This document shows, one piece after another, positions 1,182 to 63,532 of a DNA stretch of 64,000 bases; position 1 is the stretch's first letter, and the number at the start of each line of letters is the position of its first letter. Source of the DNA: Candidatus Parcubacteria bacterium (GTDB lineage Bacteria > Patescibacteriota > Minisyncoccia > JAHIHE01 > JAGLIN01). The DNA lies in NCBI GenBank assembly GCA_023132875.1, contig JAGLXN010000017.1, forward strand, positions 22,142 through 86,141, in the 5' to 3' direction. A program made the translations under genes and the position numbers. The notes under the pieces were generated by a model. It did not search any database and was not told the origin of the DNA. It saw only the letters and a list, made by a program, of their open reading frames with translations.

Positions 1182-1297
1182 GAATTCGTATAACATGTAA
1201 CGTGTAACTTATAACCTGTAATGCAATTTTTATCACACTCAGGTTACACGTTATACGTTATACGCCAACAATCTAACAATACAACAATTTAATGCTA

Positions 1298-1333: not shown

Positions 1334-2098
1334 ATGATAATTGCTTTAGTAAACCAAAAAGGGGGAGTAGGAAAGTCAACAACTGCTGTAAATTTGGGGG
1401 CCTATTTGGTCGCGCATGATAAAAAAGTTCTTTTGATTGATATGGACCCGCAAGCAAACGCGACGACAGGACTTGGCTTTAGGCCGGAAAATATAGAAAA
1501 GAATATTTATGATGTTATTTCCGGAAAAACACTTCTTCAAGATGCTATTATAAAAACATCTTTATTGGGCTATAATATTGTTCCCGCAACGCAAGATTTA
1601 GCGGGAGCAACGGTTGAGCTTGTAGAAGCGACAGAGAGAGAATTCAAATTCTATAATGCGATTAAAAACATTAGAAATGATTATGACTATATTTTAATTG
1701 ACTGTCCGCCGAGTTTAGGACTATTAACCGTAAATAGCTTAGCTGCCGCGGACAAAATTGTTATTCCGATTCAATGCGAGTATTATGCCTTGGAAGGATT
1801 AAGCCAATTGTTAAATTCAATAGATTTAATTAAAACAAATCTCAAAGAAGATCTGAAAGTTATGGGCGCGGTTCTGACTATGTATGACAAAAGAAACCAG
1901 CTTGCGCATCAAGTTGAAAAAGAAGTTAGAAGACATTTCCCAGGATATGTTTTTGATGCTGTAATTCCAAGAAATGTCGCACTTGCCGAAGCTCCAAGTT
2001 TCGGAAAAACTATTTTGCAATATGCTCCTGATAGCGCGGGAGCAAGAGCTTATGATTATTTGGCGAGAGAAATGATAAAACTGGAATCTGGAATTTAG
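1334..2098 (+). CDS. parA: ParA/Soj chromosome partitioning ATPase
   Basis: Deviant Walker A KGGVGKSTTAVNLGA; start placed at the internal Met (MIIALVNQKGG); the six-frame ORF begins at 1292. Confidence 0.9.
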   Translation: MIIALVNQKGGVGKSTTAVNLGAYLVAHDKKVLLIDMDPQANATTGLGFRPENIEKNIYDVISGKTLLQDAIIKTSLLGYNIVPATQDLAGATVELVEATEREFKFYNAIKNIRNDYDYILIDCPPSLGLLTVNSLAAADKIVIPIQCEYYALEGLSQLLNSIDLIKTNLKEDLKVMGAVLTMYDKRNQLAHQVEKEVRRHFPGYVFDAVIPRNVALAEAPSFGKTILQYAPDSAGARAYDYLAREMIKLESGI

Positions 2099-2143
2099 AA
2101 TTTTTTCAATTTCAATCAATTTAAATCTTAGCTAATTTATTTT

Positions 2144-8128: not shown

Positions 8129-9031
8129 ATGGACAATCCCCAAACCAAAATCTCTGAAAAACAAATTCAAATCAATGGTTTGAATATAAATTATAAAACA
8201 ATCGGCGATGGGAAAATCCCGATTGTTTTGTTGCATGGGTGGGGAGTGTCAAGCGATAAATATACAGAATTAATAAAAATATTATACTCAATACTCAATA
8301 CTCAATATTCAATATTCATCCTTGATCTTCCCGGATTTGGAAAAAGCGACGAACCGAAAGAAAACTGGAATTTGGATGATTATGTTGAGTTTGTGGATGA
8401 ATTTATTAAAAAGACAAGTAGAAAAGGCGGATTTGAGTTAGTTAAAAATATATTAGAGAAAATGCAAGAAGGCTCCACAGGGCTATCGCCACAATGGAGC
8501 CAACGATCTTCTTGTCGACAAAAACTAGTCTTAATCGGTCATTCGTTTGGCGGGAGAATTGCGATAAAATATGCTGTGAAATGCCCTGAAAAAATTGATA
8601 AATTGATTTTAACCGGAGCGGCGGGAATTAAGCGTAAATTGACCGTAAAACAGAAAATATTCTTTATTTTGGCAAAAATAGGAAAGAAAATTTTTTCTTT
8701 GCCGTTAATTAATAATTTAGAAAAATACGCGCAAAAAATATTATACAAAGCTACTAAGGAAAAAGATTATTACCAAGCCAGCCCGAGGATGAAAGAAGTA
8801 ATGAAAAATGTTTTAGATGAAGACTTAACAGATTATTTAGATAAAATAAAAAATCACACTTTATTAGTTTGGGGAAAAGAAGACAAAACCACGCCTTTAG
8901 CTGATGGAAAAATTATGAATGAGAAAATTGAGAATTCCAAGTTAATTGTGGTTGATGACGCTAATCATAGTTTGCCATATCAGAAGGCTGAGAAGTTTGT
9001 GAAAATTGTGGAAAAGTTTATAAAAAAATGA
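8129..9031 (+). CDS. Alpha/beta-hydrolase fold protein
   Basis: HGWG oxyanion region and GHSFGG nucleophile elbow; carries two in-frame inserts (a heptamer array and a GC-rich hairpin). Confidence 0.75.
   Translation: MDNPQTKISEKQIQINGLNINYKTIGDGKIPIVLLHGWGVSSDKYTELIKILYSILNTQYSIFILDLPGFGKSDEPKENWNLDDYVEFVDEFIKKTSRKGGFELVKNILEKMQEGSTGLSPQWSQRSSCRQKLVLIGHSFGGRIAIKYAVKCPEKIDKLILTGAAGIKRKLTVKQKIFFILAKIGKKIFSLPLINNLEKYAQKILYKATKEKDYYQASPRMKEVMKNVLDEDLTDYLDKIKNHTLLVWGKEDKTTPLADGKIMNEKIENSKLIVVDDANHSLPYQKAEKFVKIVEKFIKK
8286..8320 (+). repeat. In-frame heptanucleotide tandem array (ACTCAAT x3, ATTCAAT x2) inside the hydrolase ORF
   Basis: Seen directly; encodes ILYSILNTQYSIF. Confidence 0.7.
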
Positions 9032-9317: not shown

Positions 9318-10898
9318 ATGTCAATTATTTTAATTACAATATTAATATTATTTCTCATCAAAATTGTCCGTGATAGCTTGTTTTGTGTTTGGCTTTGGCA
9401 GGTGAAAGAATATCGGATAGATCGGATGAAATCTTATTTGAGAGACGAGAAAAGTATTATTTATAAAAATATTAATTATTTATTTGTTTTGATTTTATTT
9501 TTTATTTGCATTTTGGTTCCACAGCCATTCGGGACTATGGAACTAATGATTCTTATTTATTTAACGCTTTTATTTTTTACTTTTACTTTTTACCAAATTT
9601 TAATAGAAATAAAAGATAGAATTTTAAAAAGACCAAAGTTGACTTTTAAGATAATTCTAATATTTTTCATAGAAGCCACCTTTTATTTTTCGTTCTTTGT
9701 ATTTTACTGGATTCCCGCATTCGCGGGAATGACAAGACCTGCGGTCTTGATCCTACTATTACTATTTATTTATCTCATCACTCCTTTTTTAATTGCTACA
9801 ATTATTTTGTTAACAAATCCATTTTTTAATTTCCAAAAAAGAATAATAAAAAAAAAAGCCACCGAAAAAATGAAGGGATTGAAAAAAGTAAAAGTTATCG
9901 GTATTACGGGCAGTTACGGAAAGACAAGCACGAAAGAATTTCTATATGCGATATTGAACCAGAAATATAAAGTTGTAAAAACAGAAGGGAATAATAATAC
10001 GAATATCGGCGTGGCTTATACTGTTTTAAATAAAGTGAGTGATAAATATGATTATTTTATCTGTGAAATGGGCGCTTATAAAATTGGCGAAATCGCAGAA
10101 ATTTGTAAAATAGTAAAACCGGAAGTTGGAATTTTAACAGGAATTAACGAACAGCATATTGATTTATTTGGGTCTATTGAGAATACGGTTAAAGCGAAGT
10201 TTGAATTGATTGAGGCGTTGCCAGAGAACGGATTGGCGGTAATAAATGAAAAATTAAAAAATCAAAATGGAAAATTACAATTTAAAATTAAAAATGTTAA
10301 ATATTTTTCTTTGAACAATGTAAATGATATTAAAGTTTGTCAGGATTATGTAGGGTTTAATTATAAGAACTATAAATTTAAAACTAATCTTCTTGGCAAG
10401 CATTATATAGAAAATATTTTATCTGCTATAATGATAGCAGAATGTTTGGGAATAAGTTTGGATGAAATTGCAAAAGCAGTAGAGAAAATAAAACCGACTG
10501 AATTTATGATAAGAAAATTATACGGTCCAAATAATTCTATTTTTATTGATGACAGTTATAGCGCAAATCCTGATGGCGTAATCGCGGCGCTTGATTATTT
10601 AGATGAAGCGTATCAAGATTATAAAAAAATAATTGTTTTTCCAGGGATAATTGAATTGGGAAACAAGTCAAAAGAAGTGCATCAAAAATTATTTAGTAAA
10701 ATAGATAAAATTTGCGACTTTGCTTATATACTGAATACAGAATACAGAATACAGAATACTAATAACAAATTTGTTTTTGAGAAGGATTTTAATAAAGTGG
10801 CGAGAATGCTGAAAAATAATCTCAACGAAAAATCTGTTGTTCTTTTTGAAAGCCGGGGAGCGGGAGTGGCGATGGGAAAAGTAAAAATAGAAAAATAA
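9318..10898 (+). CDS. MurF-like Mur ligase with an N-terminal polytopic membrane domain of about 190 aa
   Basis: Mur ligase P-loop GITGSYGKTSTKE and C-terminal DDSYSANP signature; the N-terminus is strongly hydrophobic. Confidence 0.7.
   Translation: MSIILITILILFLIKIVRDSLFCVWLWQVKEYRIDRMKSYLRDEKSIIYKNINYLFVLILFFICILVPQPFGTMELMILIYLTLLFFTFTFYQILIEIKDRILKRPKLTFKIILIFFIEATFYFSFFVFYWIPAFAGMTRPAVLILLLLFIYLITPFLIATIILLTNPFFNFQKRIIKKKATEKMKGLKKVKVIGITGSYGKTSTKEFLYAILNQKYKVVKTEGNNNTNIGVAYTVLNKVSDKYDYFICEMGAYKIGEIAEICKIVKPEVGILTGINEQHIDLFGSIENTVKAKFELIEALPENGLAVINEKLKNQNGKLQFKIKNVKYFSLNNVNDIKVCQDYVGFNYKNYKFKTNLLGKHYIENILSAIMIAECLGISLDEIAKAVEKIKPTEFMIRKLYGPNNSIFIDDSYSANPDGVIAALDYLDEAYQDYKKIIVFPGIIELGNKSKEVHQKLFSKIDKICDFAYILNTEYRIQNTNNKFVFEKDFNKVARMLKNNLNEKSVVLFESRGAGVAMGKVKIEK
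9709..9753. repeat. Repeat family B hairpin (GGATTCCCGC-ATTC-GCGGGAATGAC plus AGACC-TGCG-GGTCT) inserted in-frame in the murF-like ORF
   Basis: Palindrome read directly; translates to IPAFAGMTRPAV. Confidence 0.6.
10733..10760 (+). repeat. In-frame heptamer tandem array (GAATACA x3, GAATACT) in the murF-like ORF
   Basis: Seen directly. Confidence 0.7.
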
Positions 10899-12490: not shown

Positions 12491-13519
12491 ATGAATATTA
12501 AAGAAATAACAAATAAATCCCAATGGGAAAATTTTGTTCAAGAAAACAAAGAAAGTACTTTTCTGCAATCTTGGAATTGGGGAGAATTCAATAGAAACAC
12601 AGGAGAAAAAATCTGGCGACTTGGAGTTTTTGACAATGAAGAACTTTTAGCAGTCGCGCTAGTTATAAAAGTAAACGCAAGGAGAGGATCATTTTTATTT
12701 GTTCCGCAGGGACCAATAATAAAGGTATTCAGTATTCAGTATTCAGTATTCAGTATATTAAATGAATTTTTTGATTATTTAAAAGATCTTGGAATAAAAG
12801 AAAGGGTTGGATTTATTCGCGTTAGTCCGATTTTAAAAAATACTGAAGAAAATTTGAATATTTTTGAAAAAGCAGGATTTAGAAACGCGCCGATTCATAT
12901 GATGCACCCAGAAACAACTTGGCTTTTAGATATTACAAAAAGCGAGGATGAAATTTTAAAAGGAATGAGAAAAACGCATAGAAATTTAATTCGTCGCGCG
13001 GCAAAAGAAGATGTTAAAATTATACAAAGCACGGATGAAGAATATCTTAAAGCGTTTTATGATATTCATATGGAAACTGTCCGGCGGCATAAATTTGTCC
13101 CGTTCCCCTATGATTATATAAAGAGCGAAACTGACGCGTTTAAAAACGACGATCAAATAAGCATATTTTCCGCAAAATATAAAGGTGAAATAATTTCATC
13201 CGCTATTATAATATTTTATGGAGAACAAGCTTTTTATCATCATGGCTCATCATCGTCAAAGTATTATAAAATTCCATCATCATATTTAAATCTTTGGGAA
13301 GCAATTAAGGAAGCAAAAAAAAGAGGAAAGAAGAAATTTAATTTTTACGGTATTGTTGAAAATAAGCCGAAACATCCTTGGGCTGGATTGTCAAAATTTA
13401 AAAAAGGATTTGGCGGACACCAAGAGGAACTATTACATTGCCAGGATTTGCCGTTGAATAGAAAATACGCGATTACATGGGTTGTTGAAACAATAAGGAA
13501 AGTTAGAAGAGGATATTGA
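12491..13519 (+). CDS. FemAB-family peptidoglycan interpeptide-bridge peptidyltransferase-like protein
   Basis: N-terminal QSW.WGEF signature region; GNAT-like size. Confidence 0.55.
   Translation: MNIKEITNKSQWENFVQENKESTFLQSWNWGEFNRNTGEKIWRLGVFDNEELLAVALVIKVNARRGSFLFVPQGPIIKVFSIQYSVFSILNEFFDYLKDLGIKERVGFIRVSPILKNTEENLNIFEKAGFRNAPIHMMHPETTWLLDITKSEDEILKGMRKTHRNLIRRAAKEDVKIIQSTDEEYLKAFYDIHMETVRRHKFVPFPYDYIKSETDAFKNDDQISIFSAKYKGEIISSAIIIFYGEQAFYHHGSSSSKYYKIPSSYLNLWEAIKEAKKRGKKKFNFYGIVENKPKHPWAGLSKFKKGFGGHQEELLHCQDLPLNRKYAITWVVETIRKVRRGY
12724..12751 (+). repeat. In-frame heptamer tandem array (GTATTCA x4) in the FemAB-like ORF
   Basis: Seen directly; encodes SIQYSVFSI. Confidence 0.7.
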
Positions 13520-13523
13520 TGGT

Positions 13524-13566
13524 GAATCAGGAATCAGGAATCAGGAATTATGAATTAGGAATTAAG
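13524..13566. repeat. GAAT-core heptamer array (GAATCAG x3, GAATTAT, GAATTAG, GAATTAA) right after the FemAB-like stop
   Basis: Seen directly. Confidence 0.7.
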
Positions 13567-13629
13567 AACTTTCTATTTTTATAAAAATGCTTAGATGTTT
13601 ATTAGAAATGTTTATTGTAATAGATAAAA

Positions 13630-13656: not shown

Positions 13657-13720
13657 AATTTGTAATTTTTAAAATAAATTCCATAGTTTCATATAACATA
13701 CAATCCATAATTCATGATTC

Positions 13721-14752
13721 ATGATCCGTAATTTCAAGTTTAGAAGAAAAAGAATAAAACCATGGCAGCGAAAACCAAGGATTTTTGCGAGTCACAAACC
13801 TATTTTTTTTAAAAAAAATAAAAGCGGTTCTGCTAAAAATCTTAAAAGGGGATTATTGATAGCGTTTGTTTTTTTTGTCGCGTATTTTATTTTTTTCTCG
13901 GAGTTTTTTATAATTAAAAAAATAGATATAAATGGAAACAAAACCATTTCCAATAAAAACATAGAAAAAATCATAAAAAATGAAAACTCAAATCCGATTT
14001 TAGCAATTTTTCCTGGAAATAATTTTTTTCTTACTAACGAGGAAAAAATAGAAAAAAAACTGCTTAGCGAGTTTTCAGAGATCAAAACAATAACAATTAA
14101 AAAAAAGCTTCCAGATACTATAAAAGCGGAGATTGTAGAAAAAAATCCTCTTATTCTTTGGTGCAGAACTGAAAGCTGTTATTATCTTGACACTGAAGGA
14201 ATAGCTTTTATGGCTGAAAGCAGTGATACAGAAGCATATAAAGACAAAAAATTTATAAAAATTATAGAAGAGGTAAAAATTAAAGAAGAGATAGAAGATG
14301 AATTAGAAAGAGAGAAAGAAGAAAAGGAAACTAAGCCAGTGTTTTTAGATAATATTCAAAATACAATTGATTCTGAAATTTCTGATAATCCAGAGCATGA
14401 TGAAAGAGAAAATGATAAAAAAAATGAAGACAAAAATATCATACTAGAACCAATAAAAATAAATGATAAGATCGCGAATGAAGATTTTATAAATTTTGTT
14501 TTTAAATTAGATAATAGCATTAAAAGCGACACTGATATAAAAATTAAATATTATAAGACAAAGGGAGTAAAAACAAGAGAGATAATCGCGTATTCAGATA
14601 AAAACATAAGAATTTATTTTAATACTGCAGATGACGCGAAATTACAAACAACATATCTAAAAGATTTTATGTCTAAAGGAATTGGTAAAAATGAAATAAA
14701 TACATTAGAATATATATACCTTAAATCTGGAAATAAGATTTTTTATAAATAA
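13721..14752 (+). CDS. ftsQ: FtsQ/DivIB-like cell division protein (TM + POTRA) with an acidic insertion
   Basis: TM segment followed by a POTRA-like pattern I.INGN...LPDTIKAEIVEKNPLILWC. Confidence 0.55.
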   Translation: MIRNFKFRRKRIKPWQRKPRIFASHKPIFFKKNKSGSAKNLKRGLLIAFVFFVAYFIFFSEFFIIKKIDINGNKTISNKNIEKIIKNENSNPILAIFPGNNFFLTNEEKIEKKLLSEFSEIKTITIKKKLPDTIKAEIVEKNPLILWCRTESCYYLDTEGIAFMAESSDTEAYKDKKFIKIIEEVKIKEEIEDELEREKEEKETKPVFLDNIQNTIDSEISDNPEHDERENDKKNEDKNIILEPIKINDKIANEDFINFVFKLDNSIKSDTDIKIKYYKTKGVKTREIIAYSDKNIRIYFNTADDAKLQTTYLKDFMSKGIGKNEINTLEYIYLKSGNKIFYK

Positions 14753-16360
14753 TTGAAATTTAAAATAATTAAAATGAAAAAAATACGAACAAGATTTGCG
14801 CCAAGCCCGACGGGATATCTTCATGTTGGAAGTTTAAGAACTGCGTTATATAATTATCTGTTTGCCAAACATAATAACGGCGATTTTATCCTGCGTATTG
14901 AAGATACGGATAAAGCAAGGTTTGTGGAGGGTTCTATTGAAAATTTAGTGAAAATATTGGACCTAATCGAGCTGAAATATAATGAAGGTGTATTTGTAGA
15001 TAATGACGGAAAAATCTCTCAAAAAGGCAATTTTGGGCCATATATACAATCTGAAAGGCTAGAAATATATAAAAAATATGTTGACAAGCTAATAAAAAAT
15101 GATTATGCATATTTTTGCTTCTGTAGTCAAGAACGGCTGGAAGAAATGAGAAAAGAACAGCAAGCGCAAAAAATGGCTCCTAAGTATGACGGAAAGTGCA
15201 GGGGACTGGATAAAAAAGAAATTCAAAGGCTTCTCGATAAAAAAACTCCCTATGTTGTTCGTCTAAAAACTCCGCAGGAAGGATTTACCGAATTTGATGA
15301 TCTAGTTTATGGAAAAATAAAAATTGAAAACAAGGTAATTGATGATCAAGTTTTGATGAAGTCCGATGGATTTCCAACATATCATTTGGCAAATGTCATT
15401 GATGATCATTTAATGGAAATTTCACATGTCATTCGGGGAGAGGAATGGCTTCCATCAACTCCAAAGCATGTTATTTTATATAAAGCGTTTGGGTGGGATA
15501 TGCCAGAGTTTGCTCATCTACCACTTCTTCTTAATCCCGATAAAAGCAAATTGAGTAAACGTCAGGGCGATGTCGCAGTAGAAAATTATCTAAAAAAAGG
15601 ATATTTACCAGAAGCATTGTTAAACTTTATATTATTACTTGGTTGGAATCCTAAAACTGAAGAAGAAATTTTTTCATTTGATGAAATGATAAAAAGATTT
15701 GATTTGTCTGGAGTTAATAAAACGGGAGCTATTTTCAGTGTAGAAAAACTGGATTGGATAAATGGAACGTATATTCGTTGTATGCCGCTTGAAGAACTTA
15801 CCGAACTTTGTGTTCCATATTTGATTGAGGCAGGATTGATAGAAAGAATTATGAATTATGAATTAAGAATAAAGAATAAAATTCAAAATTCAAAATTCTC
15901 CTCCCGAGGCGGATCAGCCTTGGGCTGGAAGATTCAAAATTCTGATAAGGAAGTAGATTTTGATTATTTAAAAAAAGTTATTGCGCTTGAACAGGAACGG
16001 ATGAAGAAATTGAGTGAGATAGGGGAGCTGGTAAAATTTATCTTTGTTGATAAATTAGATTATGATAAAGATTTACTGGTATGGAAAAAAATGAGCTTTG
16101 AAGAGGTAAAAAATAATTTAGAATTAGCTTATGATGAATTAGAAAAAATAGACGAGAAAGATTTTGTGAAAAATAATTTGGAAGAAGTTTTGAGAAATTT
16201 AATGGGACGAGAGGGGATTAAGACGGGAGAATTGTTATGGCCCTTGCGAGTAGCTTTGACTGGCCTGAAAGGATCACCAGGACCGTTTGAAGTGGCAAGC
16301 GTTTTGGGAAAGGGAAAAGCTTTAAAGAGGATCAGAAAGGTAATTGAATTATTGAGATAA
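14753..16360 (+). CDS. gltX: Glutamyl-tRNA synthetase
   Basis: HIGH (PSPTGYLHVGS) and KMSKS-like (KLSKR) motifs; contains an in-frame repeat insertion. Confidence 0.9.
   Translation: MKFKIIKMKKIRTRFAPSPTGYLHVGSLRTALYNYLFAKHNNGDFILRIEDTDKARFVEGSIENLVKILDLIELKYNEGVFVDNDGKISQKGNFGPYIQSERLEIYKKYVDKLIKNDYAYFCFCSQERLEEMRKEQQAQKMAPKYDGKCRGLDKKEIQRLLDKKTPYVVRLKTPQEGFTEFDDLVYGKIKIENKVIDDQVLMKSDGFPTYHLANVIDDHLMEISHVIRGEEWLPSTPKHVILYKAFGWDMPEFAHLPLLLNPDKSKLSKRQGDVAVENYLKKGYLPEALLNFILLLGWNPKTEEEIFSFDEMIKRFDLSGVNKTGAIFSVEKLDWINGTYIRCMPLEELTELCVPYLIEAGLIERIMNYELRIKNKIQNSKFSSRGGSALGWKIQNSDKEVDFDYLKKVIALEQERMKKLSEIGELVKFIFVDKLDYDKDLLVWKKMSFEEVKNNLELAYDELEKIDEKDFVKNNLEEVLRNLMGREGIKTGELLWPLRVALTGLKGSPGPFEVASVLGKGKALKRIRKVIELLR
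15846..15948. mobile_element. Repeat family A element (GAAT heptamers plus GC-rich core CCTCCCGAGGCGGATCAGCCTTGGGCTGG) inserted in-frame in gltX
   Basis: Core matches the copies at 36568, 50467 and 63030; encodes MNYELRIKNKIQNSKFSSRGGSALGWKIQNS. Confidence 0.65.
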
Positions 16361-34738: not shown

Positions 34739-34744
34739 AGAATT

Positions 34745-34847
34745 ATATTGTTAAATTGTTGTATTGTTAAATTGTTGTATTGTTTTGCCTATTGCTTATT
34801 CAACGATTTAATCCAACAATACAGCAATGTAACAATATAACAATAAT
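34745..34847. repeat. Repeat family C, large palindromic copy (ATTGTTGTATTGTT x2 ... AACAATACAGCAATGTAACAATATAACAAT) upstream of secY
   Basis: Seen directly. Confidence 0.6.
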
Positions 34848-35285: not shown

Positions 35286-35373
35286 AAAATCATTTTAACA
35301 TATAAACATACTAACATTTTAACATACTAACATTTATTGTTAAAATATTTGATTAAGCAAATAATATAACAAT

Positions 35374-36000: not shown

Positions 36001-36132
36001 ATTTATTACAAATTAAATAATACAAGTTAAGTTTCACGCATCTCAGAAATCCGGTTATAGAGACACGATTAATCACATCTCTACAATCGGACTCCTGAAA
36101 TGCTCATATTTGAATTTCCTAGCAGTAGATTA

Positions 36133-36489
36133 CTAAAAAACCAATCCCTCTTCACGGGCACCTTCAGCTACTGCTCTTACTCTTCCGTGATATTTATAGC
36201 CTCCTCTATCAAAAATAACTCTGCTTATATTTTTTTCCTGAGCTTTTTTTGCAATTAATTTTCCAACTTCTTTCGCAGCGTCAATCTTTATTTTCTTTCC
36301 TTTAATCTCTTTTTCGCTTGCGCTTGCCAAGGTAATTCCTAAATCATCATTAATCAGTTGAACAAATAATCCCTTATTGCTTCTAAATAAATTTAAACGC
36401 GGAGTTTCTGCTGTACCAATAATCTTAGAGCGAACTCGTTTATGCCTTCTTGTCTTAGCTTGTCTTTTTATTATTTCCTTATTTTTCAT
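36133..36489 (-). CDS. rplR: 50S ribosomal protein L18
   Basis: C-terminal [24 protein letters not shown]. Confidence 0.9.
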
Positions 36490-36545
36490 AAAAATATTTT
36501 GTTATAAAATTCTTAAAGTTTCTAATTTCCAAAATAATTTGAAAA

Positions 36546-36615
36546 TTTTGTCATTGAAAATTGATTGCCGGTCCAAGGCTGGTCCGCCTCGGGCGGAAAA
36601 ATTAGAAATTGAAAA
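36546..36615. mobile_element. Repeat family A copy (TTTTGTCATTGAAAATTGATTG-CCGGTCCAAGGCTGGTCCGCCTCGGGCGG-AAAAATTAGAAATT) in the rplR-rplF spacer
   Basis: Near-identical over about 70 nt to the copy at 50443..50512. Confidence 0.65.
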
Positions 36616-36616
36616 T

Positions 36617-37165
36617 TTACTCTCCTGTTCCCGCGACTTTCTTTCCAACTTTCCTTCTTACATGCTCTCCTAAATACCTTATCCCTTTTCCTTTATATGG
36701 TTCTGGCTTCTTTTTACTTCTTATATCAGCAGCAATTTGTCCTACAAGCTGCTTATTTATTCCAGCTATGGTAATAATATTTTTTTCAACATTAAATTCT
36801 ATTCCTTTTGGAGCTTTAAATATTACTAAATGTGAAAAGCCAAGACTAAGTTCCAGATCATTTCCTTTTTGAACTACCTTATACCCAACTCCTTGTATTT
36901 CAAGTTTTTTTTCAAATCCTTTTTCCGCTCCTTCAATCATATTAGCAATTAATGTTCTAGAAAGTCCCCAAATAGCATAATTTTTTTTTGTATTATTTTT
37001 TACAGATACTATAATATGATTGTCTTTAATCTCAATAGACATTTTTGAATCAATTTTATCAGTAAGCTCTCCTTTGGGCCCCTTGACAATAACTTCATTA
37101 TCTTTACTAACAGAAAATGTGACTCCTGATGGTATGTTTATTGGCTGTTTTCCTATTTTACTCAT
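36617..37165 (-). CDS. rplF: 50S ribosomal protein L6
   Basis: Conserved L6 sequence, tandem alpha/beta domains. Confidence 0.9.
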   Translation of the reverse strand: MSKIGKQPINIPSGVTFSVSKDNEVIVKGPKGELTDKIDSKMSIEIKDNHIIVSVKNNTKKNYAIWGLSRTLIANMIEGAEKGFEKKLEIQGVGYKVVQKGNDLELSLGFSHLVIFKAPKGIEFNVEKNIITIAGINKQLVGQIAADIRSKKKPEPYKGKGIRYLGEHVRRKVGKKVAGTGE

Positions 37166-37211
37166 AATTTAAAATGTTTATATGTTTATATGATTATATG
37201 ATTATATGATT

Positions 37212-37601
37212 TTACCACACTTCAAAAATAACTTCTCCACCAAGCCCTTTTTCTTTTGCTTCTAAATTAGTCATGACACCTTGATGTGTTGAAATAATAG
37301 AAAGCCCATATCCGCCAAGTATTTTTGATACTTTTTTCTTATTAATATATCTTCTTTGACCGGGTTTACTAACTCTTTTAATTTCGGATATTGCATAATT
37401 ATCACCAACTTTTTTTAATACAACTTCTAAAGTTATTTTAACTCCTTTTTTATGTTGAATTACATCTTGAATATAACCTTCTTTTTTAAGGATTTTTGCC
37501 AAGGCTAGCTTAAATTTAGAAGAAGGCATTAACACGGCCATATGATTGGCTCTTTGTGCATTTCTTATTCTTGTTAGCATGTCCGATATTGGATCAGTCA
37601 T
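37212..37601 (-). CDS. rpsH: 30S ribosomal protein S8
   Basis: MTDPISDMLTRIRNA N-terminus. Confidence 0.9.
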   Translation of the reverse strand: MTDPISDMLTRIRNAQRANHMAVLMPSSKFKLALAKILKKEGYIQDVIQHKKGVKITLEVVLKKVGDNYAISEIKRVSKPGQRRYINKKKVSKILGGYGLSIISTHQGVMTNLEAKEKGLGGEVIFEVW

Positions 37602-37607
37602 ATTTTT

Positions 37608-37705
37608 GAATATTGAATTATGAATTTAGAATTACGAATTACGAATTACGAATCGACGATATTTTACAATCTTCATGATTCATAATTCATAATTCATAAT
37701 TCATC
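37608..37705. repeat. GAAT-core heptamer arrays in inverted orientation (GAATTAC x3 ... ATAATTC x3) in the rpsH-rpsN spacer
   Basis: Seen directly. Confidence 0.7.
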
Positions 37706-37706
37706 T

Positions 37707-37892
37707 TTACCAACTACTCTTTTTTAATCCAGGTATTTCTCCGGTACTTGCCAGTTCTCTTACACAAATCCTACACAGATCAAATTTCCGTAAATATCCA
37801 TGTTTTCTACCGCATTTCCAACATCTTCTAACGATACGGCTTGAGTATTTTGGTTTTTTTTGAGTTTTTGCTATTAGCGCAGTTCTTGCCAT
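37707..37892 (-). CDS. rpsN: 30S ribosomal protein S14, zinc-binding type Z
   Basis: 61 aa; CxxC...CxxC. Confidence 0.9.
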
Positions 37893-37944
37893 GTTTGTTT
37901 AGTTTATATTCTTAAAATCTTAAATCTTGTAAATAATTAACTTT

Positions 37945-38499
37945 CTATTTTTCTTCAACAATAGGAAATCCTATATTTTTCAATAATTTATAGCCTTCTT
38001 TATCATTCTTTGCAGAAGTGGTTATATTAATTTCCATACCAAAAATATTTTTTATATCATCTTTCGCCACTTCAGGAAAAATAATGTGTTCTTTTATTCC
38101 AATACTGTAATTGCCGTTTCGATCAAATGATTTTCTGCTAAGACCGCGAAAATCTCGAACCTGTGGAAGAGCAATATTAATTAATCTGTCCAAAAATTCA
38201 TACATTCTCGCCCCCCTTAAAGTTACCATCAACCCAACAGGCATTCCTTTTCTTGTTTTAAAATTTGAAATTGCTTTTTTTGCTTTTGTGATAACAGGCT
38301 TTTGTCCTACAATCGTTTCAATGTCTTTTGCTATTTTTTTTAGATCGTCTTTATTGTCATTAAGAATTCTTCCAAGTCCCAAATTTACAACAACTTTTGT
38401 TATTTTAGGAACAGACATAACATTTTTATAGCCAAATTCTTTGGTCATTTTATCAACAACTTCAATTATATATTTTTCCTTTAATCTTGCTTTATACAT
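37945..38499 (-). CDS. rplE: 50S ribosomal protein L5
   Basis: Conserved L5 sequence. Confidence 0.9.
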   Translation of the reverse strand: MYKARLKEKYIIEVVDKMTKEFGYKNVMSVPKITKVVVNLGLGRILNDNKDDLKKIAKDIETIVGQKPVITKAKKAISNFKTRKGMPVGLMVTLRGARMYEFLDRLINIALPQVRDFRGLSRKSFDRNGNYSIGIKEHIIFPEVAKDDIKNIFGMEINITTSAKNDKEGYKLLKNIGFPIVEEK

Positions 38500-38563
38500 A
38501 AGATCATTTTTAATATTTTAATATTTTAACAATATCATACTAATGTTAAAACGTCAGTGCTAT

Positions 38564-38890
38564 TTACTTCTCAATCTGTATATCAATATTTTCCTTGCAT
38601 TTTTTGCAAATTCTGTGCTTTTCTCCATTTTCTAAAACCAAATATCCAATTCTTGTCTGTTTGTTGCATTTTGGACAAATCATAGAAATATTAGAAATGT
38701 TAATCGGCACGGGAACTGTTATTTTCTGTCCCTTTTCTCCCTGCCTTCTTGCTTTAATATGCTTTTTTATAAAGTTGACACCCTCAACAACAACCCTGTT
38801 TCTCTCAGAAATTACTTTTATAACTTTACCTTTCTTTCCCTTATCTTTTCCAGTAGTTATGATTACTTTGTCATTGGTTTTAATTTTCAT
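38564..38890 (-). CDS. rplX: 50S ribosomal protein L24 (KOW) with a Cys4 zinc-ribbon C-terminal half
   Basis: KOW motif GKDKGKKGKV; C-terminal CPKC...CKKC. Confidence 0.85.
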   Translation of the reverse strand: MKIKTNDKVIITTGKDKGKKGKVIKVISERNRVVVEGVNFIKKHIKARRQGEKGQKITVPVPINISNISMICPKCNKQTRIGYLVLENGEKHRICKKCKENIDIQIEK

Positions 38891-38936
38891 AATCTTATAA
38901 CTTTCTACTTTATAAACTTTATAAACTTTTAACTTG

Positions 38937-39308
38937 CTATAGCACTTCCGGAGCTAGGGAAACTATTTTCATAAAGCCTTCATTTCTTAATTCCCTTGCA
39001 ACGGGTCCAAAAACACGAGTAGCTTTCGGAGTTATTTTATCTTTATCAACAATAACAACAGCGTTATCATCAAAGCGTATATAGGAACCGTCTTTTCTTC
39101 TAAATTTTTTCTTCTGTCTAACAATCACCGCTTTAGCAACTTCACCTTTTTTAACTTGTCCTCTTGGTTCAGCCGCTTTTATCGAAACTACAATGACATC
39201 GCCAATATAAGCATATCTTCTTCTCGTTCCGCCAAGAACCTTGATACACTTTACTAACTTTGCTCCTGAATTGTCTGCGACTGCAAGTTTGCTTCCTTGT
39301 TGAATCAT
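38937..39308 (-). CDS. rplN: 50S ribosomal protein L14
   Basis: [18 protein letters not shown]-terminus. Confidence 0.9.
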
Positions 39309-39379
39309 AAATATTAATTATTTTTATTGTTTATTTTCAAGAAATATATTTCTAAACCAACTTTATGAACTTTACAACT

Positions 39380-39643
39380 TTATGAACTTTTTACTTCTTT
39401 CGCTATCCACTTCTTTTCCTTGCTTATCGGCTTGATTTCAATAATTTTAACCTTATCTCCAATTTTAAATTTATTCTCTGCATCATGCGCTTTGTATTTC
39501 TTGCTTACTTTATATTTCTTTCTGTATATTGGATGCATTTTTAACCTATCAACCTTAACTACAACCGTCTTATCCATCTTGTCGCTTATAACAACTCCGA
39601 TCTTCCCTTTTGTATTATTTTTTTCCTTATTGTCTTTATTCAT
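39380..39643 (-). CDS. rpsQ: 30S ribosomal protein S17
   Basis: OB-fold S17 sequence. Confidence 0.85.
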
Positions 39644-39656
39644 ATATTTAACTATA

Positions 39657-39857
39657 TTATTTTTTGTTATTTACTCTCTTTTCCTTTAAAACAGTTTTTA
39701 CCCTTGCAATAATTTTTTTTGTCTTTTTTATTTCACTATAATCTTTCAATTGCCTATTCGCAAGAGAAAACCTAAAACCTTTAAGCTTCTCTTTACTATC
39801 TTTTACAAGAATTTGCAATTGTTTTTCTGATTGTTCTCTTAATTCTTTAGCTTTCAT
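39657..39857 (-). CDS. rpmC: 50S ribosomal protein L29
   Basis: 66-aa helical protein in the conserved position between rplP and rpsQ. Confidence 0.8.
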
Positions 39858-39885
39858 TTTTACCTTGAATTATGAAATTATAATC

Positions 39886-41932: not shown

Positions 41933-42052
41933 TTATTGTTATATTGTTCTATTGCTAAATTGTTATGCATGGCACATATTCACAATTATATTATTATATT
42001 ACAACTATTGAATTACTATGCATAACAATAGAACAATAGAGCAATACAACAA
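41933..42052. repeat. Repeat family C large palindrome (TTATTGTTATATTGTTCTATTGC ... GCATAACAATAGAACAATAGAGCAATACAACAA) between rpsS and rplB
   Basis: Seen directly. Confidence 0.6.
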
Positions 42053-42053
42053 T

Positions 42054-44910: not shown

Positions 44911-45087
44911 GCAAACCAATCCAGATAGCAAAGTTTAATATAAACAACAAAAAAATCAGATAATTAAACCAATCTTAACCGTTATTATCCGATTTATAAA
45001 TTGGCTAATTCAGTATGCTTAAGACTATTATTTAACCGGAAATTTCTGACAAAGTCCAGCAATAAGCACTTAAACTAGCATATAAAC

Positions 45088-45178
45088 AAATTGTTATATT
45101 GTCAAGTTATTATGCATAGCATAATAACACGCAATGTTACCTGACAATATAACAATTTAGCAATTTGACAATTTAATA
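45088..45178. repeat. Repeat family C palindrome (TTGTTATATTGTCAAG ... CCTGACAATATAACAA) just downstream of rpsJ
   Basis: Seen directly. Confidence 0.55.
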
Positions 45179-49811: not shown

Positions 49812-50037
49812 CTATTTTTTATTTTTTGAGACATTTAGAAGTATAGTGTCTTTCAATGCGACCGCATGGAAAAATGCTATATCTAATTTTTATTCATTTT
49901 CATTTCTAACAATCTTGATAAAGAAGGATATTTATAAATAACTTTTGTTTTTAAGTAAACTTTTTTCGTATCTTCAAATGTAAACTTTTGCGGTTTCATA
50001 ATTCATTATTCATTATTCTAAATTCAAGATTCAATCA

Positions 50038-62692: not shown

Positions 62693-63532
62693 TTATTTTT
62701 TCAAAACCATCCACCCAAATTTTATCGTCGCGTTATAAATTCGTTTTATTCTTCGCGGATTCAAGATCAATCGCCACAGCCATTCCAATCCCAATTTTTG
62801 GAAAATCAATGGCGCGCGTTTGACTTCACCAGATATAAAATCAAACGATCCGCCGACTCCAATTGCCAGCTTTACGCTTGGCAATTTTTTTAAGTTCTCA
62901 TAAATCCATTCTTCCTGTTTAGGAACGCCAAACGCAACGAGTATTATATCTGGTTTTGTTCTATTTATCCGCTGAATTAATTCTTCATTTAACTTATGAA
63001 ACTTATTATTATAAGAATTTGGAATTTTTCCTCCCAAGGCGGACCAGCCTTTGGCTGGGAATTTGGAATTTTGAGATTTATTTGGTATTTGGTATTTGGT
63101 ATTTGGTATTTCAAACCACATTCCCTCCTCCGCGCCCACGATATTTAAACGATCATACTTTTTAGATAAAACTTTTGCGGCTTCTCCCGCTATCCCTTCT
63201 CCCGCTCCTAATAAATATATCTTTTTACCTTTTATAAGTTCAGATTCACAGATTTTATAAATTAAATTAATACCCGTAATTTTTTCGGGCAATGTTTTAT
63301 GATTTAAAAATTTGTTCGCAAATAAAATTCCTGTTCCATCCGGAATAATAATATCGGCTTCATTTATAATTTTTTTAAAGTGATTATTTTTTCGAGCTTC
63401 AACAACCATTTCTGGGTTTAGTGTTACAATATAATGTTGTTGATCCGATAATAAAAAACTCTTGATTTTTTCAAGAACTTCTTTTGTTGTAATCTTATTT
63501 ACTTTTACATCTAATATTTTTTCATAATTCAT
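62693..63532 (-). CDS. WecB/TagA/CpsF-family glycosyltransferase carrying an in-frame family A repeat insertion
   Basis: N-terminal WecB/TagA-like region IIIPDGTGI; insertion encodes EIPNTKYQIPNKSQNSKFPAKGWSALGGKIPNS. Confidence 0.65.
   Translation of the reverse strand: MNYEKILDVKVNKITTKEVLEKIKSFLLSDQQHYIVTLNPEMVVEARKNNHFKKIINEADIIIPDGTGILFANKFLNHKTLPEKITGINLIYKICESELIKGKKIYLLGAGEGIAGEAAKVLSKKYDRLNIVGAEEGMWFEIPNTKYQIPNKSQNSKFPAKGWSALGGKIPNSYNNKFHKLNEELIQRINRTKPDIILVAFGVPKQEEWIYENLKKLPSVKLAIGVGGSFDFISGEVKRAPLIFQKLGLEWLWRLILNPRRIKRIYNATIKFGWMVLKK
63015..63112. mobile_element. Repeat family A element (core CCTCCCAAGGCGGACCAGCCTTTGGCTGGG plus ATTTGGT x4 heptamers) in-frame inside the wecB-like gene
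   Basis: Core matches 15899, 36568 and 50467. Confidence 0.65.

What the first reader, a model, noticed from the sequence alone, without database searches (positions are those of the whole stretch)
37608..37705. GAAT-core heptamer arrays populate intergenic spacers, including spacers inside the ribosomal operon
GAATATT GAATTAT GAATTTA (GAATTAC)x3 is followed by the inverted (ATAATTC)x3 between rpsH and rpsN. Similar GAATxxx or xxxATTC arrays occur at 13524..13566, 13700..13735, 15846..15898, 37174..37213 (8-mers), 49985..50035 next to tRNA-Gly and 63062..63112. A periodic 7-nt unit with an invariant GAAT suggests a sequence-specific process such as a nickase or primase site, or a small-protein binding array. 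Simple AT-rich drift seems less likely.
Basis: seen in the sequence. Interest (0 to 1): 0.5.

Follow-up and report, generated by a model that had tools for sequence, protein, structure and literature searches.

The report
Slippage-built heptamer hairpin repeats in spacers
The GAAT heptamers between two ribosomal-protein genes are the two arms of a fast-evolving hairpin made of short tandem repeats, an AT-rich version (in a tiny uncultured Patescibacteria genome) of the enigmatic heptamer repeats already known from Xanthomonas, Nostoc and Beggiatoa, not a nickase or primase site.

Summary
Period-7 and period-8 tandem arrays are 30-300 times commoner than in shuffled sequence. GAAT is only the commonest of several cores: CAAT octamers, ATGTTA and ACTTTA also occur. 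Two of the listed sites lie inside genes.

At 37602-37706 the mRNA strand folds into a roughly 30-bp stem (-35 kcal/mol, z -7). It runs from the rpsN stop codon to about 27 nt before the rpsH start.

Close relatives carry the same architecture in the same spacers but with other units, or with a different number of whole units. Equally AT-rich relatives have none.

Arrays also sit in frame at orthologous sites in femAB, murE, gltX and a hydrolase gene, with lineage-specific units.

My best explanation is that these are simple-sequence arrays built and homogenised by strand slippage, with inverted copies giving foldback hairpins that are tolerated in transcripts. They match the heptamer repeat class of Xanthomonas GGGAATC, Nostoc STRR and Beggiatoa TAACTGA, but cannot form G-quadruplexes.

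A sequence-specific GAAT process is not supported. A function at the mRNA level is not excluded.

The parts
37672..37704 (-). Stop-proximal arm of the focal hairpin. On the mRNA (minus) strand it reads TGAATTA x3, TGAATCA, TGAAGAT and begins 3 nt after the rpsN stop codon.
   Evidence: (I15/I17)
37629..37653 (-). Paired part of the start-proximal arm: (TTCGTAA)x3 on the mRNA strand. It pairs with the TGAATTA units through three G-U pairs. The whole stem-loop spans 37629-37702.
   Evidence: sense -35.0 kcal/mol, z -7.0; antisense -23.4 kcal/mol, z -3.6
37602..37628 (-). Unpaired leader of degenerate ATTC-type units (TTCTAAA TTCATAA TTCAATA TTCAAAAAT) running up to the rpsH AUG. No Shine-Dalgarno motif. 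It is homologous to the leader of L289/L290, so it is older than the stem.
37166..37211 (-). Single octamer array between the rpsH stop and the rplF start: AATCATAT x3, AAACATAT, AAACATTTT on the mRNA strand. The closest relative L287 has two fewer whole units.
13523..13568 (+). GAAT heptamer array (GAATCAG x3, GAATTAT, GAATTAG, GAATTAA) straight after the femAB stop codon. The 96%-identical relative L284 has exactly 3 fewer units with identical flanks.
13700..13735 (+). Partner ATTC-type array abutting and overlapping the ftsQ start codon. It is the inverted arm of 13523-13568.
   Evidence: (I18/I20)
15843..15898 (+). In-frame GAAT array followed by an inverted AAAATTC array inside gltX, between the catalytic and anticodon-binding domains.
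15898..15931 (+). GC-rich twin mini-hairpin (TCTCCTCCCGAGGCGGATCAGCCTTGGGCTGGAAG) nested in the gltX array. It is absent from the orthologues in L285 and L286.
49985..50035 (-). GAAT-type heptamer array (read on the minus strand) just 3' of tRNA-Gly (50038-50113, minus strand).
63079..63111 (-). Perfect TATTTGG x4.7 array (plus strand), in frame in a WecG-family glycosyltransferase gene. It lies next to GGAATTT units and a copy of the GC-rich mini-hairpin (63026-63061).
12725..12756 (+). Perfect in-frame (GTATTCA)x4.6 array in femAB, encoding KVFSIQYSVFSI. The same site carries heptamer arrays with other units across many Patescibacteria.
10728..10759 (+). In-frame (GAATACA)x4.6 array in the Mur ligase gene. 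The orthologous site in L286 has (AAGAATC)x4.7.
8284..8318 (+). In-frame (ATACTCA)x3 (ATATTCA)x2 array in an alpha/beta hydrolase gene. The orthologous site in L286 has (CAATTTT)n.
34743..34845 (-). Octamer hairpin filling the rplO-secY spacer. On the mRNA strand the arm after the stop codon is ATTGTTnn x4 and the arm before the start codon is AACAATnn x5.
   Evidence: (I10/I14/I16)
41934..42053 (-). Octamer ATTGYYnn/RRCAATnn hairpin filling the rplB-rpsS spacer. It is 89% identical to that of L003, against 66% identity at 4-fold sites.
   Evidence: (I6)
45070..45176 (-). Octamer ATTGTC/GACAAT hairpin upstream of rpsJ.
   Evidence: (I8)
1187..1290 (+). Heptamer GTnTAAC/GTTAnAC hairpin followed by AACAATnn x3, running up to the start codon of the gene at 1292.
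2084..2101 (+). Short GAAT heptamer array overlapping the stop codon of the gene 1292-2098.

Best explanation
The GAAT heptamers are the two arms of a foldback repeat. It is one instance of a lineage-specific population of 7- and 8-nt tandem arrays.

Anatomy, shown directly: on the polycistronic mRNA strand, TGAATTA units start 3 nt after the rpsN stop codon. They pair with TTCGTAA units through three G-U pairs to give a stem of about 30 bp. Some 27 nt of older, unpaired, G-poor ATTC-type units then run up to the rpsH AUG, which has no Shine-Dalgarno sequence.

Dynamics, shown by comparison with relatives: arrays gain and lose whole units, and variant units spread within an arm. Whole hairpin modules are replaced between genomes whose S8 proteins are 91-95% identical. 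This has inflated ribosomal-operon spacers from about 30 nt to about 100 nt.

Mechanism, inferred:
- The arrays are simple-sequence repeats created and kept homogeneous by replication strand slippage in 7-8-nt steps.
- The opposite arm arises by intrastrand template switching or inverted copying of an existing array. In this window the left arm is the inverted copy of the ancestral leader unit.
- Modules can be copied between spacers.

The arrays persist only where they are tolerated. In spacers, a self-folding insert keeps the stop and start codons close together and leaves a free leader. In proteins, they sit in frame in permissive loops.

They are most likely selfish or neutral products of this mutational process. 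If they have a role, it would be at the mRNA level (intercistronic stem-loops), not a GAAT-specific DNA enzyme site. They are the AT-rich counterpart of the heptameric repeat class known from Xanthomonas, Nostoc and Beggiatoa.
For: Non-randomness and period specificity.

Hairpin: one search gives -35 kcal/mol and z -7.0, with 0 of 200 shuffles as stable. Across 67 spacers of at least 60 nt in six genomes the mean z is -4.4. The stems span from the stop codon to 0-13 nt before the start codon.

Not AT drift, and lineage-specific:
- Arrays per 10 kb: window 4.4, L003 11.3, L004 7.5, L005 9.2, L009 3.1. Equally AT-rich L006, L007 and L008 have 0.
- Median spacer length is 88-161 nt against about 30 nt.

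Whole-unit slippage seen directly:
- The 13523 array has 6 units in the window and 3 in L284 (FemAB 96% identical), with identical flanks.
- The rpsH-rplF array has 2 more units in the window than in L287.
- The L284 femAB array alternates GTATTCG and GTATTCA at a 14-nt spacing.

Module turnover:
- The rpsN-rpsH spacer holds GAAT (window), AACAAT (L287, S8 95% identical), AGTATTA (L288-L290, L009) or AAAGT (L003, L004) hairpins.
- Modules are present in one genome and absent in another at L23-L2, S3-L16 and S8-L6.
- Two L003 spacers share a right arm that is identical at 35 of 36 positions.

An ancestral leader is shared by the window and L289/L290.

Coding arrays sit at orthologous sites with different units. 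The femAB site is periodic in 28% of 80 loci, against 0-5% for every other segment of the gene.

The same architecture is published for Xanthomonas and Nostoc: heptamers, convergent pairs, placement next to stop and start codons, transcription, and rapid length variation. A polymerase-slippage explanation for the heptamer size is cited there.
Against: Some features look selected rather than neutral:
- The rplB-rpsS hairpin is 89% identical between the window and L003, where 4-fold sites are only 66% identical.
- Short arrays of 4.6 units stay perfect, at constant length, at the same coding sites across deep divergence. Pure slippage under a reading-frame constraint explains this only awkwardly.
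- Sense-strand folds are more stable than antisense folds in 40 of 66 spacers (p = 0.02), with 323 against 209 G-U pairs. At the focal hairpin the difference is about 12 kcal/mol. This hints at selection on the RNA, although strand composition could produce the same bias.

Other gaps:
- Nine near-identical locus pairs showed no copy-number change, so slippage is not extremely fast.
- Template switching and the route by which modules are copied between spacers are inferred, not shown.
- No transcript or read-level data were available.
- GAAT-core heptamers recur in unrelated lineages. That recurrence is unexplained.
Confidence: 0.55

Rival explanations
1. The array hairpins are functional post-transcriptional elements of polycistronic mRNAs in a lineage without Shine-Dalgarno sequences. 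The roughly 30-bp stems could act as RNase III-type processing or stability sites, or as translational-coupling devices that hold the stop and start codons together. The single-stranded arrays in front of start codons could be landing or binding sites for S1 or cold-shock-type proteins. MacGregor proposed this for the TAACTGA repeats.
For: - Stems run from the stop codon to 0-13 nt before the start codon, and about 27 nt of G-poor leader is left unpaired.
- Almost no gene in the window has a Shine-Dalgarno motif.
- There is a sense-strand G-U bias.
- The rplB-rpsS hairpin and the leader portions are conserved above the neutral level.
- In the rplB-rpsS hairpin the arm before the start codon is better conserved than the arm after the stop codon.
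- The published analogues sit in the same places, including inside r-protein operons.
Against: - Close relatives that also show no Shine-Dalgarno motif in the spacers read (L006-L008) manage with spacers of about 30 nt and no arrays.
- Which spacers are filled differs from genome to genome, and modules of unrelated sequence replace one another.
- The same arrays occur inside ORFs.
- With ancestral spacers of about 25 nt, any insert necessarily abuts the stop and start codons. A convergent palindrome also shows the same arm order on either strand. Placement and polarity therefore need no selection.
Confidence: 0.25
2. The hairpin modules are non-autonomous mobile elements of the MITE, REPIN or foldback type. 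Their inverted ends are built of tandem sub-repeats, and a transposase encoded elsewhere in the genome moves them.
For: - The same family occupies different spacers in different genomes.
- Copies share multi-unit signatures and an ATGCAT motif near the loop.
- Whole modules are present or absent between genomes.
- GC-rich mini-hairpins clearly move, appearing at new loci in strains 85-96% identical.
- Arm length is fairly uniform, at about 4 units or 32 nt.
Against: - No target-site duplications were found at filled versus empty spacers, or around the GC-rich inserts, which sit in phase inside arrays.
- No transposase was found among the 20 window proteins scanned against Pfam; most of the other ORFs can be placed by position in the r-protein operon.
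- Unit number varies by slippage, and units differ at orthologous coding sites. A cut-and-paste element does not predict either.
Confidence: 0.15
3. GAAT every 7 nt would be the recognition array of a sequence-specific DNA enzyme or binding protein, such as a nickase, a primase or a small DNA-binding protein.
For: - GAAT/ATTC is the dominant core at period 7.
- It recurs in Portnoybacteria L018, in a GC-rich viral contig L211 and in Xanthomonas GGGAATC.
- Units keep a conserved core with 2-3 variable positions.
Against: - Orthologous spacers and orthologous coding sites use unrelated units in close relatives.
- The same genome has several other core families.
- No strand bias independent of gene ends could be shown.
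- No candidate protein was identified.
Confidence: 0.04
4. The in-frame heptamer arrays are contingency loci. Gain or loss of one 7-nt unit would shift the reading frame and switch cell-envelope genes on and off.
For: - The unit length is not a multiple of 3.
- The arrays are perfect.
- Several hosts are cell-wall genes: femAB, murE, a WecG-family gene, and mraY in L083.
Against: - An array also sits in gltX, which is normally essential (established knowledge).
- Every homologue recovered keeps the same in-frame length.
- Near-identical pairs show no length polymorphism.
- Arrays of 4-5 units are short for efficient switching.
Confidence: 0.06
5. The arrays act through G-quadruplex or i-motif formation, as was proposed for the Xanthomonas and Nostoc heptamers.
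For: The placement is the same, and arrays are typically about four units long.
Against: Units such as GAATTAC, AACAATnn and ACTTTAA carry a single G or none, so no G-tracts exist.
Confidence: 0.01

Closest known systems
Heptameric intergenic repeats of Xanthomonas (GGGAATC) and Nostoc (GGGGAYT, the classical STRR sequences), as described by Rehm et al. 2015 (PMC4692102)
   Same: - Tandem heptamers with a conserved core and variable positions.
- Mostly a few units per array, with a preference for four reported.
- 70-75 convergent inverted pairs per genome that can form stem-loops.
- Located between co-oriented ORFs.
- The G-bearing strand lies within 50 bp after a stop codon, and its complement within 50 bp before a start codon.
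- Occasional occurrence inside ORFs.
- Extensive length and sequence variation between close species.
- Function unknown.
- The Xanthomonas unit even contains GAAT.
   Different: - The units here are AT-rich with at most one G, so the proposed G-quadruplex cannot form.
- Several unrelated unit families, and 8-nt periods, coexist in one genome.
- The arrays fill spacers inside the ribosomal-protein operons.
- In-frame arrays are conserved at orthologous coding sites.
- The host is a Patescibacteria genome whose main scaffold is 0.83 Mb.
TAACTGA direct repeats of marine Beggiatoaceae, some Cyanobacteria and Bacteroidetes (MacGregor 2015, PMC4679880)
   Same: - Heptamer arrays of 2-6 copies ending within a few nt of start codons that lack Shine-Dalgarno sites.
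- They occur inside ribosomal-protein operons and occasionally within ORFs, MurG among them.
- Their phylogenetic distribution is patchy.
- A post-transcriptional role has been suspected.
   Different: - That system has one fixed unit sequence genome-wide.
- It consists almost only of direct repeats, with a single inverted case.
- No hairpin architecture or unit turnover was reported.
REP/REPIN and MITE-type intergenic palindromes, and eukaryotic foldback elements whose inverted ends are made of tandem sub-repeats
   Same: - Dispersed hairpin-forming modules of about 100 nt in spacers, including inside operons.
- Family members at different loci.
- Co-transcribed with the flanking genes.
- The arms of foldback elements are likewise built of short tandem units.
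   Different: - No conserved genome-wide sequence.
- No target-site duplication and no associated transposase was seen.
- The arms change by whole-unit slippage.
Rickettsia palindromic elements (recalled from general knowledge, not tested here)
   Same: Small repeats inserted in frame into protein-coding genes at permissive sites, as well as in spacers.
   Different: Those are elements of about 100-150 bp with a fixed consensus, not short-period tandem arrays. No sequence relationship exists.
Tandem repeats of Borg elements (PMC9879509, abstract only)
   Same: Pervasive, lineage-specific, fast-evolving perfect tandem repeats in both spacers and ORFs.
   Different: No 7-8-nt period and no inverted pairing are mentioned for the Borg repeats. 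(That repeat units inside Borg ORFs are multiples of 3 is recalled from general knowledge, not read here.)

Membership tests
Heptameric intergenic SSR class (Xanthomonas GGGAATC / Nostoc STRR) | Tandem heptamer units with a conserved core, in strong excess over chance | tested here: met
   23 GAAT-N3 triples against 0.08 expected, and period-7 arrays 11 against 0.03 expected.
Heptameric intergenic SSR class (Xanthomonas GGGAATC / Nostoc STRR) | Mostly non-coding, between co-oriented ORFs, close to stop and start codons with the G-bearing strand after the stop | tested here: met
   arrays near stop codons have G>C in 25 cases against 7, and arrays near start codons have C>G in 24 against 9. Distances are 0-8 nt from the stop and 0-13 nt from the start. 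Searches agree.
Heptameric intergenic SSR class (Xanthomonas GGGAATC / Nostoc STRR) | Frequent convergent inverted pairs able to form stem-loops | tested here: met
Heptameric intergenic SSR class (Xanthomonas GGGAATC / Nostoc STRR) | G-tracts allowing G-quadruplex formation | tested here: not met
   The units carry one G or none. This feature belongs to the proposed mechanism rather than to the repeat architecture.
Heptameric intergenic SSR class (Xanthomonas GGGAATC / Nostoc STRR) | Repeats are transcribed | not testable with these tools
   No transcript data were available. Transcription is inferred from the position inside the r-protein operon, where no terminator-like sites were found.
TAACTGA repeat system (Beggiatoaceae) | The unit sequence is TAACTGA | tested here: not met
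   The units are GAATnnn, AACAATnn and others.
TAACTGA repeat system (Beggiatoaceae) | Arrays end within a few nt of start codons lacking Shine-Dalgarno sites, including inside r-protein operons | tested here: met
   compared with the published description read.
MITE | Terminal inverted repeats flanked by a target-site duplication | tested here: not met
   Inverted arms are present, but no duplication was found at filled versus empty spacers. The GC-rich inserts sit in phase inside arrays without a duplication.
REP/REPIN | One conserved palindromic sequence of 20-40 nt, in many copies, with a cognate RAYT transposase | tested here: inconclusive
   Families share cores and some multi-unit signatures, but there is no fixed consensus. 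No transposase was found among the 20 window proteins scanned. The rest of the 831-kb scaffold could not be searched.
Intrinsic transcription terminator | GC-rich stem followed by a U-tract | tested here: not met
   5 terminator-like sites in 33000-46000 against 5.9 expected, none at the array hairpins. The stems are AT-rich and have no T-run.
Phase-variable contingency locus | Repeat unit not a multiple of 3, inside an ORF | tested here: met
   7-nt arrays lie in femAB, murE, gltX, the hydrolase gene and the WecG-family gene.
Phase-variable contingency locus | Unit-number polymorphism that shifts the frame among close strains | tested here: not met
   All homologues keep the in-frame length. 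Near-identical pairs do not differ. Read-level data could not be examined.
Known RNA families (Rfam 15) | Match at the family's gathering score | tested here: not met
   Only the two tRNAs pass. Permissive hits are sub-threshold matches to generic microRNA hairpin models.
Slippage-driven simple-sequence repeat | Alleles differ by whole repeat units with unchanged flanks | tested here: met
   The window has 6 units and L284 has 3 at 13523-13568. The window has 2 more units than L287 at 37166-37211. A variant unit recurs at a 14-nt spacing in L284 femAB.

The most novel reading that the evidence does not exclude
The arrays could be a maintained system rather than junk. Short heptamer arrays stay perfect, at constant length, at the same in-frame sites of femAB, murE, gltX and a hydrolase gene, while the unit sequence itself turns over. 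Some intercistronic hairpins are also conserved above the neutral level. Together these could mean selection for the periodic nucleic-acid structure as such. One example would be tiling by a repeat-register-tolerant RNA chaperone or regulator that replaces Shine-Dalgarno-based control in these reduced genomes. Because the arrays cannot form G-quadruplexes, this would also overturn the G4 explanation offered for the Xanthomonas and Nostoc heptamers. It would point instead to one shared, still unknown mechanism behind the heptamer repeats first described decades ago.
Probability: 0.15. Interest if true: 0.8.

Novelty: new variant of a known kind. Interest (0 to 1): 0.55.

Why it matters
Heptamer repeats next to bacterial genes (STRR, GGGAATC, TAACTGA) were first described decades ago (recalled from general knowledge), and both papers read here still call their function unknown.

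This Patescibacteria lineage shows the same architecture with AT-rich units that cannot form G-quadruplexes. Whatever explains the class is therefore unlikely to be G4 formation.

The lineage also offers an unusually clean comparative series:
- Array-free and array-rich sister genomes with the same base composition.
- Whole-unit slippage caught between strains 95-96% identical.
- Module replacement in a fixed spacer of the ribosomal operon.
- Orthologous in-frame arrays whose unit sequence evolves in concert.

That makes two questions testable: how such repeats arise, and whether they do anything.

Practically, these arrays inflate spacers and insert peptides into conserved enzymes of candidate-phyla genomes. 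They can mislead gene callers and alignment-based phylogenies.

Tried and rejected
1. **AT-rich drift.** Rejected. Relatives L006-L008 have the same G+C and no arrays. The shuffles preserve local composition.

2. **Long-range pairing between the murE and femAB arrays.** The murE array (AGAATAC)n and the femAB array (GTATTCA)n are nearly complementary in the window and lie 2 kb apart. The units do not co-vary as complements in L083 or L286. Rejected.

3. **Arrays as accumulated target-site duplications of the GC-rich mini-hairpins.** Rejected. The inserts sit in phase inside arrays of normal total length and carry no duplication (L139, L140).

4. **Arm order as evidence of selection by translation.** The arm after the stop codon bears G and the arm before the start codon bears C. 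I withdrew this as evidence. A convergent palindrome shows the same order on both strands, and short ancestral spacers force inserts against the stop and start codons.

5. **Intrinsic terminators and known RNA families.** Nothing found.

6. **Copy-number polymorphism among nine near-identical metagenome locus pairs.** None seen. Those loci hold few arrays, so the test was weak. Closer relatives of the window then did show it.

7. **A sharp four-unit mode.** Core-spaced runs are mostly 4 units. A strict near-perfect-run detector gives a monotonic distribution instead, so I claim only 'typically 3-6 units'.

8. **Sense versus antisense G-U asymmetry as proof of RNA-level selection.** The effect is significant but modest, and it is confounded by strand composition.

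9. **Transposases in the window.** None among the 20 ORFs scanned against Pfam.

10. **Literature on such arrays in Patescibacteria.** Nothing found in the searchable library.
Full report
**Source and setting.**
The window (31% G+C) matches an 831-kb metagenome scaffold, ENA ERZ23498665 ZHAN22-2 scaffold_1. A genome scan with its S8 protein places it among Patescibacteria (Paceibacterota-type) MAGs. NCBI's label for its FemAB protein is truncated to 'Candidatus Ande...'.

Positions 33.4-45.5 kb hold the S10/spc ribosomal-protein operons on the minus strand. rpsN is 37707-37892 and rpsH is 37212-37601. The finding therefore lies in the 105-nt spacer 37602-37706.

Yes. The plus strand reads GAATATT GAATTAT GAATTTA (GAATTAC)x3 GAAT, then 18 nt, then ATGATTC (ATAATTC)x3.

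- Three GAATs at 7-nt spacing occur 23 times in the window against 0.08 expected. None of 100 shuffles reaches 23.
- Tandem Repeats Finder gives 11 period-7 arrays against 0.03 expected in block-wise dinucleotide shuffles. For period 8 the figures are 7 against 0.2.
- With a strict detector on the window and five related loci, runs of at least 3 units are in excess only at periods 7 (38 vs 2.4) and 8 (28 vs 0.2). Period 5 shows no excess (18 vs 19) and period 6 only a small one (13 vs 7).
- GAAT/ATTC is the commonest core at period 7 and ATTG/CAAT at period 8.

Corrections to the finding:
- Two listed sites are inside genes, in frame: 15846-15898 in gltX and 63062-63112 in a WecG-family glycosyltransferase gene.
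- The 37174-37213 octamers have no GAAT.
- Further arrays were missed, including in-frame ones in a hydrolase gene (8284-8318), murE (10728-10759) and femAB (12725-12756).

**Anatomy.**
The two arrays at the focal site are inverted copies of each other. On the mRNA (minus) strand, TGAATTA units begin 3 nt after the rpsN stop codon and pair with TTCGTAA units.

- The fold is a near-perfect stem of about 30 bp (window 37629-37702), with -35.0 kcal/mol and z -7.0. No shuffle folds as well.
- The other strand folds to only -23.4 kcal/mol (z -3.6), because three G-U pairs become C-A mismatches.
- The last 27 nt before the AUG (37602-37628) are unpaired ATTC-type units.

The same plan recurs through the window. 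An array sits right after a stop codon, its inverted partner ends 0-13 nt before the next start codon, and the stem spans the spacer. Examples are the rplO-secY, rplB-rpsS, femAB-ftsQ and tRNA-Leu spacers.

Across 67 spacers of at least 60 nt in six related genomes the mean folding z-score is -4.4. Almost no gene in the window has a Shine-Dalgarno motif, and the arrays themselves form the leaders. No terminator-like sites or known RNA families coincide with the hairpins.

**Comparison with relatives: the spacers.**
- Arrays of period 6-9 number 4.4 per 10 kb in the window, 7.5-11.3 in L003-L005 and 3.1 in L009. They number zero in the equally AT-rich relatives L006-L008. AT-richness is therefore not the cause.
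- Array-bearing genomes have median ribosomal-operon spacers of 88-161 nt, against about 30 nt in array-poor relatives.
- The orthologous rpsN-rpsH spacer keeps the architecture but not the sequence. It holds AAAGT/ACTTT units in L003 and L004, AGTATTA/TACTTAA in L009 and L288-L290, and an ATTGTT/AACAAT octamer hairpin in L287, whose S8 is 95% identical.
- L289 and L290 share with the window only the last ~32 nt before the AUG. The unpaired ATTC-type leader is therefore older, and the window's stem is a lineage-specific addition whose left arm is the inverted copy of that leader unit.
- Whole modules are present in one genome and absent in the next: L23-L2 is 31 vs 134 nt, S3-L16 29 vs 166 nt, and S8-L6 49 vs 203 nt.
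- Two different L003 spacers carry right arms identical at 35 of 36 positions, which implies copying between loci.

**Direct evidence of slippage.**
- The GAAT array at 13523-13568 has six units in the window and three in L284 (FemAB 96% identical), with identical flanks.
- The rpsH-rplF octamer array has two more units in the window than in L287.
- In L284 the femAB array alternates GTATTCG and GTATTCA, so the variant unit recurs at a 14-nt spacing. That pattern suggests a multi-unit duplication rather than independent point mutations.

**Arrays inside genes.**
All four simple coding arrays have orthologous counterparts in the syntenic relative L286, each with a different unit:
- hydrolase: ATACTCA vs CAATTTT
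- murE: GAATACA vs AAGAATC
- femAB: GTATTCA vs AGTTCAA
- gltX: GAATTAT/AAAATTC vs ATTACAA/AAAATTC

FemAB homologues 67-96% identical all have the same length. All show a 7-residue-periodic peptide at this site that back-translates to heptamer arrays differing by single substitutions applied to every unit: GTATTCA, GTATCCA, ATATCCA, ATATCAA, GTATCAA, ATACCAA (DNA confirmed for several loci).

In 80 metagenome femAB loci, 28% have strong 7-nt periodicity at residues 70-100. Every other 30-residue segment shows 0-5%. This is concerted evolution at a long-lived permissive site.

GC-rich mini-hairpins sit nested in phase inside such arrays without target-site duplication. The window has four copies of one such element, two of them in frame in gltX and the WecG-family gene. 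They appear and disappear between strains 96% identical.

**Interpretation.**
Taken together, the arrays behave as simple-sequence repeats that expand, contract and homogenise by strand slippage in 7-8-nt steps.

- Inverted arms most likely arise by template switching or inverted copying. This step is inferred.
- Modules are then copied or replaced among spacers by a route I could not establish.
- Their placement against stop and start codons needs no special explanation. Ancestral spacers were only about 25 nt long, and a convergent palindrome shows the same arm order on either strand.
- They appear to survive where they are harmless: as self-folding inserts that keep stop and start close and leave a G-poor leader free, and in frame in tolerant protein loops.

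Some observations argue for more than neutrality:
- The rplB-rpsS hairpin is 89% identical between the window and L003, where 4-fold sites are 66% identical.
- Sense-strand folds are more stable than antisense folds in 40 of 66 spacers (p = 0.02).
- Short coding arrays stay perfect over deep divergence.

An mRNA-level role in processing, stability or coupling therefore stays open at roughly one chance in four.

**What is known.**
The closest published systems are these.
- Heptameric repeats of Xanthomonas (GGGAATC) and Nostoc (GGGGAYT). They share the core-plus-variable unit, a reported preference for four units, 70-75 convergent pairs per genome, location between co-oriented ORFs next to stop and start codons, transcription, rapid variation and unknown function.
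- The TAACTGA repeats of Beggiatoaceae. These are heptamers abutting start codons that lack Shine-Dalgarno sites, including inside ribosomal-protein operons and occasionally in ORFs.

The present case meets the architectural criteria of that class but not the G-tract criterion. It adds octamer families, multiple cores per genome and conserved in-frame sites.

Similar convergent GAAT-type arrays also occur in a Portnoybacteria MAG (L018), in Verrucomicrobia loci with other units (L064) and in a GC-rich viral contig (L211). I found no description of such arrays in Patescibacteria in the searchable literature.

**Verdict.**
- The GAAT-specific enzyme idea is not supported.
- This is a new, G4-incapable variant of a known but unexplained repeat class.
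- Slippage is now directly documented. Function remains unresolved.

Noticed in passing
window 15898-15931 (+), 36557-36598 (-), 50455-50495 (-), 63026-63061 (+): There are four copies of a GC-rich twin mini-hairpin with core GGCGGAYCAGCCTTKGG, against 0.01 expected. All four are embedded in heptamer arrays. Two are in frame, in gltX and in a WecG-family gene. A related copy sits at a different locus in L285. Different GC-rich mini-hairpins nest in the femAB arrays of other Patescibacteria (L097, L112, L134, L139, L140).
   Followed up: partly
window 13633-13660, 60856-60894, 60995-61033, 32705-32735, 27485-27520, 53175-53215: A second dispersed palindrome family of the form GTCATTCTGAA...TTCAGAATGAC. 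In L284 a GC-rich mini-hairpin is inserted in the loop of the 13633 copy and is absent from the window. L004 and L005 spacers hold many relatives of this family.
   Followed up: partly
window 39880-39970, 43440-43525, 44830-44910: Three related long hairpins (TTAGTGTaaATATTAGTTT ... AAACTAATATttACACTAA) occupy the rplP-rpmC, rplD-rplW and rpsJ-rplC spacers. They form a further hairpin family with sub-repeats of about 9-10 nt.
   Followed up: no
window 6602-6660, 8012-8121, 16761-16860: Another hairpin family built of CACTGAC and CACAGAT words lies between plus-strand genes. A related sequence is in the L286 hydrolase-murE spacer.
   Followed up: no
whole window, 60 nt upstream of each gene: Shine-Dalgarno motifs are almost absent. 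tuf, with AAAGGAGA, is a clear exception. Several ribosomal-protein genes are preceded by a recurrent AAAATGAT(n)TT just before the ATG (rplO, rplE, rplP, rpsS). The same motif precedes rplF in relatives.
   Followed up: partly
window 33310-33463 and L005 10415-10518: The secY-gmk spacer keeps a single ATTGTTnn x4 array after the secY stop codon. It is followed by a strongly conserved AAATATAATAATATGAG... segment in genomes whose 4-fold sites are only 45% identical, possibly a promoter. A similar array precedes a TTGACA-17-TATTCT match at 58890-58984.
   Followed up: no
window 47881-48356: A 189-nt tandem repeat (2.5 copies, 82% identical) lies inside a 657-residue ORF (47838-49811) that has no Pfam match.
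   Followed up: no
window about 18.3 kb: Gene orientation converges and cumulative GC skew peaks near 18.3 kb, which may mark the replication terminus. The neighbouring 18.3-20.3 kb region holds small ORFs with no Pfam match.
   Followed up: no
L211 640-740 and 10755-10845; L190 6326-6357: A GC-rich viral contig carries AT-rich convergent GAATGGT/AATTCTA heptamer arrays between genes.
   Followed up: partly
L018 738-863, 1735-1806, 2204-2281, 2826-2915, 3914-4025: A Portnoybacteria MAG whose S8 is only 55% identical has heptamer-only convergent arrays in its ribosomal-operon spacers, several with AGAATTA/TAATTCT units. The Verrucomicrobia locus L064 (58% G+C) has a TGGAGCAT/CACTCCAC pair at 1895-1966.
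   Followed up: partly
L003 1618-3226: The rplC-rplD spacer is about 1.6 kb in L003 against 26 nt in the window. This is an unexamined insertion inside the S10 operon.
   Followed up: no
L083 12770-12806: A perfect (TCAATAT)x5.4 array lies in frame in a Glycos_transf_4 (MraY-type) gene of another Patescibacteria contig. This is a further cell-envelope gene carrying a coding heptamer array.
   Followed up: no
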